Shown: piece after piece, positions 2,265-64,000 of the stretch
How positions within the stretch are numbered: position 1 is the stretch's first letter
Layout: each line of letters starts with the position of its first letter
Assembly: GCA_951406725.2 (NCBI GenBank)
Contig: OX597837.1
Span: forward strand, 11,222,001 to 11,286,000
Direction: 5' to 3'
DNA: 64,000 nt
Origin: Octopus vulgaris
Taxonomy: Eukaryota
Notes under the pieces: generated by a model
Told to the model about the DNA's origin: nothing
The model's database searches: none
What the model saw: the letters and a program-made list of their open reading frames with translations, nothing else
Position numbers and translations under genes: made by a program

Positions 2265-2480
2265 ATAAGCATTTTTCCGGCGTGCTAACGATTTGGCCAG
2301 TTCACCTCCCCCTGACAACGATGCAAAGCGCATTGTGACTAGCGATGTATTACAAGATTCGATAGCCATGTGAATCATGTGATGTATATATATATATATA
2401 TATATATATATATATATATATATATATATATATATATATATATAAATTGATCAAAATAAAAACATGATGCGAAGGATTCA

Positions 2481-2558
2481 GCGGTACATATGTTTCGGGC
2501 CTTTATTAGACAGATTTATAACAATGCATAATGTATGTCTGTGGCCTTCTTCAGCCGC
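2481..2558 (-). ncRNA. Type I hammerhead ribozyme, extended stem II
   Basis: Minus strand: GCGG-CUGAAGA-AGGCC...GGCCC-GAAA-CAUAUG-UA-CCGC. Stem I is GCGG/CCGC and stem III is palindromic. It lies in a ~200-bp island (2446-2642) between two (TA)n tracts. Confidence 0.88.
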
Positions 2559-3049
2559 GCACAACAGCTTCCACAAGGACATGTGTACACCACCAAACGG
2601 TATACACAGGTGCTTATAATTATCAAGTACTCACCCCGAATTTATATATATATATATGTATATATATATATATATATATATATATATATATATATATATA
2701 TATATATATATATATATATATATATATATATATATATATATATATATATATATATATATATATATATATATATATATATATGTATATATATATGTATATA
2801 TATATATATATATATATATATATATATATATATATATATATATATATATATATATATATATATATATTATATATATATATATATATATATATATATATAT
2901 ATATATATATATATATATATATATATATATATATATATATAAACACACACATATATGTATGTATATATGCGAGTAAGTTTATATACATACGTGCTTACAT
3001 GCATGCCAGCAAGTATGTATGTGTATTTATAAATTTGAATATATATATA

Positions 3050-3940
3050 TATACACGCATATATATATAGATGCAATATATATATATATATATATATACA
3101 CGCATATATATATAGATGCAATATATATATATATATATATATATATATACACGCATATATATATAGATGCAATATATATATATATATACACGCATATATA
3201 TATAGATGCAATATATATATATATATATATATATATACACGCATATATATATAGATGCATATATATATATATATATATATATACACGCATATATATATAG
3301 ATGCAATATATATATATATATATACACGCATATATATATATAGATGCAATATATATATATATATATATATATATACACGCATATATATATAGATGCAATA
3401 TATATATATACTAGCAGTATCGCCCGGCGTTGCTCAGGTTTGTAAGGAAATAACTATAAAGCATTTTTAGAGAGTTATAGCCAAAAAATAGCAAAAAAAT
3501 GGAAAAAAAATGATGGTAAATTTTTTTTGAGGGATAAAAAGGTGGAGTTGCGTCCCCTAGACGGTCTGTGGTTTGGGTTTCAGATTCTCGACCCCATGTC
3601 GAATTTATCGATCTTTTTCAGAACTGGGGGAACTTTTCAAAATTTTCGCTGCGTTAGTTTTGAATTATGACATTGGGCTATGTGTGTGTCAAGTTTCATC
3701 AGAATCGGTTGAAAGCCGTGGTCAGAGTGAGGGTACGAGAAAACAGACACACAGAAAACGCACAGACAAACTGCCGTTTATATAGAGAGAGATATATACA
3801 CGCATATATATATAGATGCAATATATATATATATATATACACGCATATATATATAGATGCAATATATATATATATATACACGCATATATATATAGATGCA
3901 ATATATATATATATATATATATACACGCATATATATAAAT
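3050..3940. repeat. Minisatellite, unit ACACGCATATATATAGATGCA(TA)n, interrupted by a Helitron
   Basis: Repeated units at 3050-3410 that resume at ~3795-3940. Confidence 0.85.
3411..3792 (-). mobile_element. Non-autonomous Helitron
   Basis: Minus strand starts TC after A and ends with an imperfect CCCG/CGGG-type hairpin plus CTAG before T. No TSD. The 3' ~120 bp matches 4860-4985. Confidence 0.8.
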
Positions 3941-4586
3941 AGATGTAATATATATATATATATATATATATATATAGGAATGATGTCTTCGTGTATGTAT
4001 GCATGTGTATAAATAAATCAGAGACAGAAAATGGAAAAAAATGAGATTCTTTATTCAAATGCACTTCGTAATTATACACACACACACACACACACACACA
4101 CACACACACACACACGCATACATACAAAATATATACATAAATATATAAATATATACATATATACATACATATATACATATATGTACACACACACATGAAA
4201 TATATATGCGCATGTGTGTGTATGTAAGCATGTATCCCCTCAACCCCAAACTAAAATATCGATATTGCATGGCACCAGAAAGGGAATAGATATCATCAGA
4301 AAGTGCTGGCACCATTTTGATGTTTTAGACGAATATATATGAATTAGGATATCAAACATCTCAATAAATCATTCATATACACACGCGCACACACACACAC
4401 ACACACACTAGCGAGCACACACACATACACGCACACACAAAGGCTTACATCACGTCAAAACGGTAGAGGAGTAGGGGCCGAAACCGGACGTGGTTCCTCT
4501 CGATGATGTCTTGAGCTAACTGGATCCTATAAAGGAGCTGTTGTGGTAGCAGACCACGAAACACGGTTGAAATTCCTCAAAGCTAA

Positions 4587-4985
4587 TCTTTATATATAAA
4601 ACTAAGGTTGTGTGCTGTCTGTCTCCTACGATTTAGATTCCTAACTACTCCCACATTTTGCGGTGCAGTTTATCCAAAACCGGGTATCTTATAGTCGTGA
4701 TTCATATCGAGCCCTTCTGGGTATTAGCCGCCGTCTACGATGAGTCTACGATTTAAAAAAAAAATTACCATAATTTCTTTCCATTTTAATGCATTTTTTC
4801 GCTATTATATAAGGGAAGTAACTCTCTGAAAATGTCTACGACGAGTCAACGATTTAAAAAGAAATTTACCATCATTTTCTTTCCATTTTAATGCACTTTT
4901 TGCTATTTTTTGGCTATAACTCTCTAAAAATGCTTATATAGTTATTTCCTTTACAAACCCGAGCAACGCCGGGCGATACTGCTAG
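4587..4985 (+). mobile_element. Non-autonomous Helitron
   Basis: A|TCTTTATATATAAAA ... CCCGAGCAACGCCGGG-CGATACTG-CTAG|T: 5' TC, subterminal hairpin, 3' CTAG and an A|T target. Confidence 0.85.
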
Positions 4986-60724: not shown

Positions 60725-61285
60725 TGGTTTTAAATATATATATATTTATGTCTCGATATATATATATATATATATATATATATATATATATATATATATA
60801 TATATATATATATATATATATATATATATATATATATATATATATATATATATATATATATATATATATATATATATATATATATATATATATATATAAT
60901 TAATTAAATTAATTACATTTAATTCATTAATAGCGAAACAATTGTCCCAAGATAATCTGTATTTTTGTTATTTTTATGAACTAACAGTCGTACCGGCTTT
61001 CATGGGAAACATGTATTTTTCGTGGTTGAAACCTCTTGGATTAACTGGTGCTAGAGTGATCAATATAGTGAACACTCTCTTATATTTATATATATATATA
61101 TATATATATATATGTATATATAAACATATATATATATATATTATATATATATATATATATATTATATATATATTATATATATATATATATATATATATAT
61201 ATATATATATATATATATATATATATATATATATATATATATATATATAAATATATATATATATATATATATATATATATATATA

Positions 61286-61740
61286 GGCGCAGGAGTGGCT
61301 GTGTGGTAAATAGATTGCTAACCAACCACATGGTTCCGGGTTCAGTCCCACTGCGTGGCATCTTGGGCAAGTGTCTTTTGCTATAGCCCCGGGCCGACCA
61401 ATGCCTTGTGAGCGGATTTGGTAGACGGAAACTGAAAGAAGCCTGTCGTATATATATGTATATATATATATATATATATATATATATATGTATATGTATA
61501 TGTGTGTGTGTTTGTGTGTCTGTGTTTGTGTTTTTGTGTTTGTCTCCCTAGCATTGCTTGACAACCGATGCTGGTGTGTTTACGTCCCCGTCACTTAGCG
61601 GTTCGGCAAAACAGACCGATAGAATAAGTACTGGGCTTACAAAGAATAAGTCCCGCGGTCGATTTTCTCGACTAAAGGCGGTGCTCCAGCATGGCCGCAG
61701 TCAAATGACTGAAACAAGTAAAAGAGAAAAAAAAAAAGAG
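61286..61740 (+). mobile_element. Full-length SINE family A
   Basis: Complete head, internal microsatellite and tail. Confidence 0.9.
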
Positions 61741-63418
61741 AGATATCTAATCGTTTATAGTAACGTGTAGATGCACTCTACGAGGACACATTTTGGATTA
61801 TACACCCGTCTGCTAGATCCACCCACAGCGCTTGGGGCATCTCGGAGCTCTAATACGTGATACTTGTTCAAGATGCCACACTGCAACTCTGCAGACGTGT
61901 TACCAGGCCACTTACCAATACTGGCCCACTTAACAATAATTTTCCGAGTTGTTTAATCAGATGTATAATCCGGAGTATGAATTGATAAAGGAAAATTCAG
62001 ACAGCTTATGTTTGAGTGGACTGAATTACTGAAGAGGCCATTGTAAAGGCAACGATTAAATAAAGCACTTCAGACCGAATCTGAAACAAACACAACAGAT
62101 GCGCGCGCAGACATACATACATACATACATACATACATACGTACGTACGTACGTACGTACATACGTACATACATACATACATACATACGTACATACATAC
62201 ATACGTACGTACATACATACATACGTACGTACATACATACATACATACATACGTACATACGTACATACATACATACGTGCATACATACATACGTACATAC
62301 ACATAAATATATATTCACACTCATATATATATATATATATACACACGTATACATATACATACACATACATACATATGCATATGTATATATATGTATATAT
62401 ATACATAGATACATACATATATGTACATATATATATATATATATATATATATATATATATATATATATATATATATATATATATATATGTATGTATATAG
62501 ATATATCTATACCTGTATATATATATATATATATATATATACATATACACGTAGGTATTGACAAGGCGGTGGGATAGAGAGTGAGAGAGAGGGAGATATA
62601 CGTATACAAATGAAACAGTGCCACAAAGAAATAAATTGAAAAGCAATGAAAGAAAACGAAATTAATTGCAATTTTCAAATAATTAAATAAATAAATGATA
62701 TAACCGATGTCTCCGATCGAAAAGAAAACCGGTTGAGGATAAGGTGGGAAACCGGCAACGGTATCGTAGAAGGGAACAACAACAACAACATATATATATA
62801 TTGGAGGATTTCTGTTGTACGAATCAACTAAAATTTAAAGCCTGTAACCAACTCTATCGATCTTTTGTGCCGAACTGCGACGTTACAGACTGCACGTCCT
62901 AAATGTGTAGGACCATCAATGGATCATCAGTGATGTTTTAGCATTTTAATATTTCGAATATTTTTGTTTATATACAATCATGCTTAAAGAAAGAACGTTC
63001 TGGTAACTTTTATCATTTGGTTGCTTTATTCATTGAACCACGACCAGGCTGGAGCACCACCTTGAAGTGTTTTAGTCGAATAAATCAACTGCAGTGCTTA
63101 TTTGTTTTAAAGACAGGCACTTATTCTGCTGATATCTTTGGCTGAACCGCTAAGTTACGGTTATCAGGTGGGGGTATCGGTGACAGACACAAGCACAAAA
63201 AATATTTACATACACACATATACACACACACGCACACACACACACTCACTTTCTCCTTCGCTCTCTCTCTCTCATATACACACACATACACACACACCCG
63301 CTTTCTCCCCCCCTCTCTCTCTCTCATACACACACACACATACATGCACACACACACACATATGGATATATAACAAATGATGGAGAAGGAAAATGGACTA
63401 AACGAAAATCTTTATGGC

Positions 63419-63522
63419 TCACAACGATCGTTTCGACCCATTTTGTATCAATCCCTCGCGAATGAGATAATGTACAACTGGTTGTGATGCATCACTCGGT
63501 ACAGATGTGTCTCGTCAGGTGA
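63419..63522 (-). ncRNA. Type I hammerhead ribozyme, long stem II
   Basis: UCAC-CUGACGA-GACACAUCUGUA...UACAAAAUGGGUC-GAAA-CGAUCG-UU-GUGA. Confidence 0.9.
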
Positions 63523-64000
63523 TTTTACAAGAAAAATCTCGTTAAAAGCCTCTGTTTTGCTCTGTTTATATATATATATATATATATATATATATATATA
63601 TATATGTGTGTGTGTGTGTGTGTGTGTGTGTGTTAGGGTTAGGGCTAGGGTTACACCCATAACCTCTATCTTACTTTGTACTATATATATATGTATATAT
63701 ATATAAGGTTACAGTAAATCTCATGGGGATCACTTCTCTATGTTTCTCGACCCAATATTTTATGCAAGTAAATCCCAAATCACGTTGAATGTATATAATT
63801 TTGTTACATCAAAACAAACAGTCAATGGGATTCTGTTGTTCTGGACAGATGTGACAGGAAATCGATGTCATAATAAAGTTGTCAAGATCTCCACTGTCAG
63901 TTAAACACATTTGAAATCTGGTGAGTACACTATGTATGAAAAAAGCGGTAATTTAACTTAATGAGCAGTGCAAAATAATTTTTTAATGTTAAAATGTTAA

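What the first reader, a model, noticed from the sequence alone, without database searches (positions are those of the whole stretch)
2446..63570. Window-wide system of hammerhead-ribozyme mini-elements in (TA)n microsatellites
Seen: 12 fully foldable type I HHRs start at 2481, 6413, 6590, 12078, 21237, 24447, 24732, 34421, 47727, 48112, 60513 and 63419. About 8 variant or decayed copies add to these. They fall into roughly ten families whose stems are unrelated in sequence yet pair around a conserved core, which is natural covariation. Most sit in 0.2-0.7 kb ORF-less islands bounded by TA repeats. Known: Penelope-like elements (PLEs) and their non-autonomous retrozyme relatives carry type I HHRs with palindromic stem III. 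Inference: these are a large, diverse set of TA-associated PLE-derived self-cleaving elements at about one per 3-5 kb. They could cut any intronic or lncRNA transcript that crosses them.
Basis: partly seen in the sequence, partly recalled or inferred. Interest (0 to 1): 0.92.

Follow-up and report, generated by a model that had tools for sequence, protein, structure and literature searches.

The report
Ribozyme-tipped ends of Penelope-like retrotransposons
The twelve self-cleaving hammerhead RNA motifs are real, but they are mostly the clipped ends of known Penelope-like jumping genes that insert into TA repeats; what stands out is their number in this octopus-like genome (at least 50,000, many with an unusually long stem).

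Summary
All 12 type I hammerhead motifs are present. A descriptor finds 11, against 0.09 in shuffles. They form 9 insertions of 9 multi-copy families. Five families are 5'-truncated 3' ends of autonomous Penelope-like elements (PLEs) with RT + GIY-YIG ORFs upstream in longer copies: two Hydra, one Hydra-like, two Neptune/Nematis-type. One family is a non-coding 488-bp tandem unit (retrozyme-like), one a ~270-bp non-autonomous element, and two are unresolved. PLE hammerheads, the U3-A8 core, opposite-strand pairs, (TA)n targeting and an octopus Hydra element are all published. Not found in the papers read: the scale (two patterns give about 53,000 matches above control; about 10^5 estimated), a 40-70-nt helix II in about 39,000 motifs, and one-long-plus-one-short ends in 40 of 43 inverted pairs. 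The window is 3-10 times denser than the genome average. Cutting of host transcripts is unlikely for 7 of the 12, because the inverted arm is predicted to mask the ribozyme by 70-148 kcal/mol. Cleavage and expression were not shown.

The parts
2445..2642 (-). F1: 3' end of a Hydra PLE. HHR 2481-2558, 51-nt helix II, H17 at 2485. 2586-2642 is an inverted tail piece.
   Evidence: 100% match to L161, whose two HHRs lie 4759 bp apart around an RT+GIY-YIG frame
6380..6683 (.). F2: inverted pair of 3' ends of a Neptune/Nematis-type PLE. U3-A8 HHRs at 6413-6460 (-) and 6590-6637 (+).
   Evidence: RT and EN coding sequence upstream in L096, L106, L110
11657..12214 (+). F3: 3' end of a very young Hydra PLE. 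HHR 12078-12128, H17 at 12122, closed 4-bp helix III. The full 3' UTR is 3.6 kb of microsatellite-like DNA.
   Evidence: 492-aa RT+EN frame in L254
21078..21822 (-). F4: 3' end of a Neptune/Nematis-type PLE. U3-A8 HHR 21236-21279. 21772-21822 is an inverted tail piece.
   Evidence: L170 and L172 encode RT + GIY-YIG
24325..25061 (.). F5: inverted pair from a 488-bp non-coding tandem family (retrozyme-like). HHRs 24447-24551 (-) and 24732-24836 (+), 68-nt helix II.
34093..34560 (+). F6: 3' end of a Hydra-like PLE. HHR 34421-34506, 55-nt helix II, H17 at 34500.
   Evidence: RT and EN frames in L175-L178
47574..48224 (.). F7: inverted pair, HHRs 47727-47815 (-) and 48112-48200 (+), 58-nt helix II, around a palindromic microsatellite spacer. 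At least 1.8 kb of shared non-coding upstream DNA; no ORF found.
60340..60730 (.). F8: inverted pair of a ~270-bp element with a fixed 5' end. Intact HHR 60513-60555 (-); decayed right arm.
   Evidence: 38 of 42 hits start within an 11-nt span
63375..63567 (-). F9: old family (about 80% identity between copies). HHR 63419-63522, 77-nt helix II. No ORF found.
27056..27264 (-). ~200-bp TA-bounded repeat with a minimal HHR (no helix III loop), core at 27186
32166..32374 (+). ~200-bp repeat with a minimal HHR carrying A6->U, shared by other copies
33200..33416 (+). decayed copy of the same minimal-HHR repeat
38836..39050 (-). decayed minimal HHR, core at 38987
40194..40440 (+). decayed F7-related copy with a broken core
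40480..40680 (-). ~200-bp repeat with a minimal HHR carrying U4->C, shared by other copies
44435..44650 (-). minimal-HHR repeat with U4->C
60897..61086 (+). TA-bounded fragment holding only the second half of an HHR; resembles a 534-bp tandem family listed

Best explanation
The islands are insertion scars of many Penelope-like retrotransposon families and their non-autonomous riders. Each element carries one type I hammerhead in its pseudo-LTR, between the 3' UTR of one unit and the leader of the next. Shown here: the links to RT + GIY-YIG ORFs, variable 5' truncation, two discrete 3' ends per family downstream of the cut site, abutment to (TA)n, and inverted pairs with one long and one short arm. 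Inferred from published PLE biochemistry: the GIY-YIG domain cuts both strands in (TA)n, and each DNA end primes a cDNA at one of two internal start sites downstream of the ribozyme, on uncleaved or re-ligated RNA. The two cDNAs stop early and are joined back to back. Inferred: the ribozyme serves the element, releasing unit-length RNA from tandem or read-through transcripts (192 nt before the ATG in F1), probably as a dimer or with protein help. Lone genomic copies are mostly passive and decay.
For: ORFs upstream of the HHR in longer copies of F1, F2, F3, F4 and F6. Pfam RVT_1 (E 4e-4) and GIY-YIG (E 8e-4) on the F4 protein, both below cut-off. Atlas neighbours of the F3 protein at 0.96-0.98 include RVT_1/GIY-YIG clusters. 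F1, F3 and F6 motifs match Hydra-1_Obim by eye. L161: HHR-leader-ORF-UTR-HHR with a period of 4759 bp. A TA-type array starts within 250 nt of the cut site in 30/31 F1, 28/32 F2, 28/28 F3, 28/31 F6, 25/31 F7 and 31/31 F8 copies, against 26% of 5000 random positions. Long+short ends in 40 of 43 scorable inverted pairs of seven families. In old F9, 9 of 23 copies keep the 11-nt core. PMC11167929: two internal RT start sites define the tail, both strands are cut, and HHR mutants still insert.
Against: No ORF was found for F5, F7, F8 or F9, so their mobiliser is inferred. No tree against reference PLEs was built. F6 lacks the Hydra cysteine linker, and F1 and F3 are longer than published Hydra elements. 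Pfam found nothing relevant in the four Hydra-type ORF pieces. F4 could not be scored for pair ends because of an internal (AT)6, and F9 gave few defined ends. Copies analysed were the best 25-30 hits per family, so they favour young, intact ones. Cores were somewhat better kept than flanks in F4 (p=0.0005) and F9 (p=0.04), which post-insertion selection could also produce.
Confidence: 0.88

Rival explanations
1. Rolling-circle route: the ribozymes cut multimeric transcripts efficiently, a host ligase closes the monomers, and circular RNA is the reverse-transcription template. It is most plausible for F5, and compatible with the best explanation for the rest.
For: F5 arrays have a 488-bp period with an HHR in each unit. 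The cut-to-cut monomer folds at z = -5.9. F5 helix III can close as a monomer. All copies run through the cut site. Retrozyme circles are shown in coral, mussel and axolotl (PMC7229834).
Against: Uncleaved tandem RNA explains the same copies, and was the main substrate in vitro (PMC11167929). Abundant repeats in this genome carry U4->C or A6->U cores (6 of 22 and 9 of 22 minimal motifs), so some spread with a probably weakened ribozyme.
Confidence: 0.35
2. Host-co-opted network: dispersed ribozymes cut introns or lncRNAs and regulate octopus transcripts.
For: The density is high. Five of the 12 motifs lack a full antisense arm and cost only 5-11 kcal/mol to fold in context. F3 has a closed helix III.
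Against: Seven of 12 are masked by 70-148 kcal/mol. Cores decay in old copies. The families are young and 90-100% identical between loci, apart from F9. No convincing Pfam domain in 114 window ORFs. Xenopus retrozymes are depleted from introns (10.64898/2026.07.22.740005).
Confidence: 0.07
3. Chance motifs in AT-rich, repeat-rich DNA.
For: The final descriptor was relaxed after inspection, and GAAAC..GT half-motifs are common.
Against: 11 hits against 0.09 in shuffles; 40,872 against 1,643 genome-wide. About 95 of 100 listed cores pair at positions 3 and 8 (counted by eye).
Confidence: 0.01

Closest known systems
Hydra-clade PLEs, including Hydra-1_Obim of Octopus bimaculoides (Craig et al. 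2021, PMC8557442)
   Same: C-terminal GIY-YIG, DKT motif (F1), CxCX5C linker (F1, F3), CxxC and CxH around the EN E and N, (TA)n insertion, HHR near the 3' end, and U.U at 10.1/11.1 in many published Hydra HHRs.
   Different: Published Hydra elements are mostly under 3 kb, with loop 2 of 3-10 nt. F1 has a 4.76-kb unit, F3 a 3.6-kb UTR, F1 and F6 have 51-55-nt helix II regions, and F6 lacks the cysteine linker. These are different families from Hydra-1_Obim.
Neptune/Nematis PLEs (C-terminal EN with CX2-5CxxC linker)
   Same: F4 has DKG, a CX4CxxC linker and cysteines and histidines of the CCHH motif; F2 is about 50-57% identical to it.
   Different: Neptune and Nematis were not separated (no reference tree).
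Minimal PLE hammerheads of Cervera and de la Pena 2014 (PMC4209133)
   Same: Thousands of solo motifs from truncated PLEs, many families, opposite-strand pairs 100-700 bp apart, the U3-A8 variant, palindromic helix III, dimer requirement.
   Different: The largest counts in the text read were about 2,000-9,000 per genome, with helix II of 7-8 bp. Here there are at least 53,000, about 39,000 of them with a 40-70-nt helix II.
Metazoan non-LTR retrozymes (PMC7229834; 10.64898/2026.07.22.740005)
   Same: F5 is a non-coding tandem repeat with a type I HHR in each unit and a highly structured monomer.
   Different: 488 bp is above the 170-400 nt of the 2020 paper, though within the 51-972 bp of the 2026 preprint. 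It has a long helix II, PLE-like inversions and two-site TA ends. Circular RNA was not shown.
Poseidon PAc of Anolis (Frangieh et al. 2024, PMC11167929)
   Same: Two start sites downstream of the HHR bracket a tail, and the target is AT-rich.
   Different: The published PLE tail is 30-40 bp; here the two ends lie about 50-150 nt apart, and inverted pairs use one of each.

Membership tests
Type I hammerhead ribozyme | Core (C3-G8 or U3-A8) UGAN.A, GAAA, UH, with helices I-III | tested here: met
   11 of 12 pass; the twelfth has one helix III change
Type I hammerhead ribozyme | Self-cleavage at H17 | not testable with these tools
   needs in vitro transcription
Type I hammerhead ribozyme | Tertiary contact between helices I and II | not tested
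   no loop-loop or pseudoknot search was run
EN+ Penelope-like element (F1, F2, F3, F4, F6) | RT and GIY-YIG in one frame upstream of the HHR | tested here: met
   every copy seen has at least one stop or frameshift, so no fully intact ORF was seen
EN+ Penelope-like element (F1, F2, F3, F4, F6) | Tandem pseudo-LTR arrangement with the HHR in the repeat | tested here: met
   F1 only: L161, period 4759 bp; not seen for the other four
EN+ Penelope-like element (F1, F2, F3, F4, F6) | Variable 5' truncation, inverted copy at the 5' end, optional tail | tested here: met
EN+ Penelope-like element (F5, F7, F8, F9) | RT and GIY-YIG ORF | tested here: not met
   none contiguous in the 25-30 loci per family or in two longer F7 stretches; F7 and F9 may have unseen longer copies
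Hydra clade (F1, F3) | CxCX5C linker; CxxC and CxH in EN; no CCHH | tested here: met
   read from translations, compared by eye
Hydra clade (F1, F3) | DKT and RWK motifs | tested here: inconclusive
   F1 has DKT and RW-A; the F3 N-terminus was not recovered
Hydra clade (F6) | CxCX5C linker | tested here: not met
   absent in L175-L178; filed as Hydra-like only
Hydra clade | Placement in the Hydra RT clade by phylogeny | not tested
   no reference sequences were held as loci
Neptune/Nematis (F4, F2) | DKG, CX2-5CxxC linker, CCHH, C-terminal EN | tested here: met
   F4; F2 by similarity; the two clades were not told apart
Non-LTR retrozyme (F5) | Non-coding tandem repeat with a type I HHR in each unit | tested here: met
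   24 of 24 distinct copies keep the core; longest frame inside arrays about 60 aa
Non-LTR retrozyme (F5) | Expressed as linear and circular monomer RNA | not testable with these tools
   no holder on record as RNA, and only contigs were available

The most novel reading that the evidence does not exclude
This genome hosts about 10^5 hammerheads in dozens of PLE-linked families. A long-helix-II form (40-100 nt) is a distinct functional architecture that binds the element's protein or gates dimer cleavage. Tandem families such as F5 are abundant octopus circular RNAs. Young Hydra families with kilobases of TA/TG-repeat UTR (F3: 3.6 kb, 67% alternating purine-pyrimidine) lay down fresh TA targets as they spread, helping to build the microsatellite-rich genome.
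Probability: 0.25. Interest if true: 0.65.

Novelty: new member of a known kind. Interest (0 to 1): 0.38.

Why it matters
The biology is known, so the value lies in scale and tractability. A floor of about 53,000 motifs in 2.8 Gb is at least 4 times the density implied by 120,000 axolotl copies in 28 Gb (numbers from PMC7229834 and the 2026 preprint). A recent octopus repeat annotation never mentions ribozymes (PMC13282606). Near-identical young families give ready substrates for two open questions: what the PLE ribozyme does, and how the inverted, tailed insertions form. The one-long-one-short rule is a sharp prediction for an in vitro insertion assay. Inverted islands would form long double-stranded RNA if transcribed, which bears on RNA editing (inference).

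Tried and rejected
Rfam scan: microsatellite-driven miRNA hits filled the 150 rows shown, none of them a hammerhead. Repeat finder: swamped by (ATT)n. RNA evidence: no RNA holder listed; 20 of 23 runs hold F5 sequence, but none is on record as RNA. Four guessed-RNA contig sets cover the unit and show the 488-bp return joint, which tandem DNA also gives; this is no evidence either way. No PLE coding remnant in the window itself. No convincing Pfam hit in 114 of the window's longer frames; two weak hits were below cut-off. Whether the window is intronic is therefore open. F7 upstream: no ORF in two 5-kb stretches. The Neptune-like ORF next to an F8 copy is separated by (TA)20 and is a different insertion. 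F5, F8, F9 and F7 show no sequence link to the autonomous elements held, apart from one nested F5 piece. The protein homology search timed out, as did one literature search on long helix II. A second search returned 0 papers. Earlier scan notes: none for this genome. Rejected: a fixed 5' inversion as part of the F4 consensus, because the piece is the tail from the second start site.
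Full report
Setting. The window is G000:C24:11222001-11286000 in a 2.80-Gb, 227-contig assembly. I read it as an octopus genome from its size and from SINE sequences that I recall as octopus SINEs; no call names the species. About 54% of the window is simple repeat or matches other fetched loci. 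No convincing Pfam domain was found in 114 frames.

Observation. All 12 motifs are at the stated coordinates. Descriptors of rising tolerance found 5, 8 and 11. The last was relaxed after inspection; under it, 200 block-wise dinucleotide shuffles gave a mean of 0.09 and a maximum of 2. Nine motifs have the C3-G8 core and three (6413, 6590, 21237) have U3-A8. Four begin helix II with a U.U mismatch, which Perreault et al. describe as tolerated (PMC3088659, passages). The helix II region is 51-77 nt in five families and 12-23 nt in four. Helix III is a 6-8-nt near-palindrome in seven families; only F3 and F5 can close it as monomers. At least eight further variant, decayed or half motifs exist.

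Families. Each of the nine islands was searched in the genome. First-look candidates were 1471 (F1), 1279 (F2, 23), 991 (F3, 24), 1569 (F4, 16), 2030 (F5, 15), 1767 (F6, 25), 4434 (F7, 31), 1086 (F8, 32) and 882 (F9, 33). Only 40 were scored and 25-30 fetched per family. Copies are anchored at the 3' end and stop at variable 5' points. [quoted passage not shown] F1 and F3 have the CxCX5C linker; F6 lacks it. F4 and F2 encode a DKG-type RT with a CX4CxxC linker and GIY-YIG. No copy seen had an unbroken ORF. In L161 two F1 ribozymes 4759 bp apart flank the ORF, and the ATG lies 192 nt after the first cut site. F5 is a non-coding 488-bp unit in direct and inverted arrays, with a monomer folding at z = -5.9. 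F8 starts within an 11-nt span in 38 of 42 hits and is about 270 bp. F7 has at least 1.8 kb of shared non-coding upstream DNA and F9 is old; no ORF was found for either.

Ends and targets. Copies do not end at the cut site. Each family has two preferred ends downstream of H17, for example about 35 and 110 nt (F1), 60 and 208 (F6), 93 and 176 (F8), 130 and 232 (F5), each followed by a TA-type array. An array starts within 250 nt in 25/31 to 31/31 copies of six families, against 26% of random positions. F5 (26/44) includes internal tandem units, F9 (15/31) is decayed, and F4 is confounded by an internal (AT)6. Among inverted pairs with both ends defined, 40 of 43 in seven families have one long and one short arm: F5 8/8, F1 7/7, F2 5/7, F3 3/3, F6 3/4, F7 3/3, F8 11/11. 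F4 (3 pairs), F9 (7 pairs) and 8 pairs with an undefined end were left out, and a few pairs may be counted twice. The small inversions in window islands F1 and F4 are tails from the other start site.

Genome-wide scale. A pattern for C3-G8 motifs with a 40-70-nt helix II and an 8-nt helix III matched 40,872 times, against 1,643 for the reversed control. A pattern for short-helix motifs with a 6-nt helix III matched 15,766 against 1,639. Of its first 100 rows I count by eye 83 U3-A8, 12 C3-G8 and 5 mismatched. These patterns do not test pairing. The two excesses sum to about 53,000. In 740 kb of fetched loci, 36 descriptor hits were not of the anchor family; 7 fit the first pattern and 10 the second, which scales to about 200,000 and 51,000. 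Eight arbitrarily placed 8-kb stretches held 3 motifs in 64 kb, or about 130,000 with wide error. So about 10^5 motifs, one per 15-50 kb. The window has 4 hits of the first pattern where 0.9 is expected. It also has more (TA)n, 6.7% against 3.7%.

How it works. Frangieh et al. (PMC11167929, parts 1-2 of 4 read) showed for an anole PLE that both target strands are cut in AT-rich DNA. RT starts at two internal sites that define the tail, HHR mutants still insert, and the HHR cleaves only with the protein present. The anatomy here fits: two ends per family past the cut site, one used by each arm of an inverted pair. I infer that each side of a double-strand cut in (TA)n primes one cDNA, and that both abort early and are joined. 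The ribozyme most likely frees unit-length RNA from tandem transcripts. Whether that RNA is circularised is open, and is most likely for F5. After insertion the motifs look passive: 9 of 23 F9 copies keep the core. Cores are mildly better kept than flanks in F4 and F9 and not significantly so in the other five families tested, which selection during transposition or my choice of best hits can explain.

Effect on host RNA. In the four two-armed islands (7 of the 12 motifs) a read-through transcript meets the antisense arm first. Forcing the ribozyme fold costs 69.5-148.4 kcal/mol there, against 5.3-11.2 for the other five. Even those five have near-zero equilibrium probability of helix I in context, though co-transcriptional folding is not modelled. 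Public runs gave no usable RNA evidence.

What is known. Cervera and de la Pena 2014 (PMC4209133, parts 1-3 of 4 read; supplements with the descriptor not seen) report thousands of solo PLE hammerheads per genome, many families, opposite-strand pairs, U3-A8, and low activity needing dimers. Craig et al. 2021 (PMC8557442; passages, sections 7 and 11, supplement part 2 and searches) define Hydra, list an Octopus bimaculoides member with (TA)n preference and an HHR, and describe inverted copies and tails. Cervera and de la Pena 2020 (PMC7229834, passages) and Li et al. 2026 (10.64898/2026.07.22.740005, part 1 of 5 and passages; supplements closed) cover tandem retrozymes. A 2026 octopus repeat annotation (PMC13282606, passages) lists 31 recently active Penelope-like families and has no occurrence of 'ribozyme' in the main text. 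Searches for octopus hammerheads listed no dedicated paper. The search on long helix II failed, and a related one returned nothing, so the absence of that variant from print is weakly tested. One spike-moss PLE in Craig's table has a 35-nt loop 2.

Verdict. The finding is a dense patch of a published kind of element. New families, the scale, the long helix II and the pair rule merit a moderate score of 0.38.

Noticed in passing
L254:336-3957 (F3 3' UTR); L166:4700-8311: The F3 Hydra element carries a 3.6-kb 3' UTR that is 67% alternating purine-pyrimidine runs, against 10% in random stretches. In L166 another short repeat appears inserted in a TA run of this UTR.
   Followed up: partly
window 27056-27264, 32166-32374, 40480-40680, 44435-44650: Abundant ~200-bp TA-bounded repeats carry minimal hammerheads with recurring core changes: of 22 such motifs in other loci, 6 have U4->C, 9 have A6->U with U4-G5 kept, and 1 has a canonical core.
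   Followed up: partly
window 17040-17110, 20030-20100, 42250-42320, 61650-61720 and others: A very common SINE-like repeat ends in a short hairpin followed by GAAAC..GTA, like the second half of a hammerhead, without the CUGANGA box (22 in other loci, 4 in the window by one pattern).
   Followed up: no
G000:C1:5011305-5012441 and C1:8134351-8135463 (listings): Other tandem hammerhead families with periods of about 534 bp and 361 bp; further retrozyme candidates.
   Followed up: no
window 47826-48102: The spacer between the F7 arms is itself a palindrome of nested microsatellites centred on (TA)n, so the whole 650-bp island can fold back.
   Followed up: partly
window 1470-2022, 16164-16880, 30459-31015, 45311-45860: Head-to-tail arrays of 173-184-bp SINE-like units, 3-4 copies each.
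   Followed up: no
window 24077-24297 and 34715-34872: Further TA-bounded repeat fragments without a hammerhead, stacked next to F5 and F6; similar pieces flank other loci.
   Followed up: no
window 51160-51540 (-): A 126-aa frame that resembles the C-terminus of a LINE ORF2 (recalled; no Pfam hit).
   Followed up: no
L166:1-1364 (-): An open frame of at least 454 aa of tandem C2H2-like zinc fingers about 7 kb from an F3 copy.
   Followed up: no
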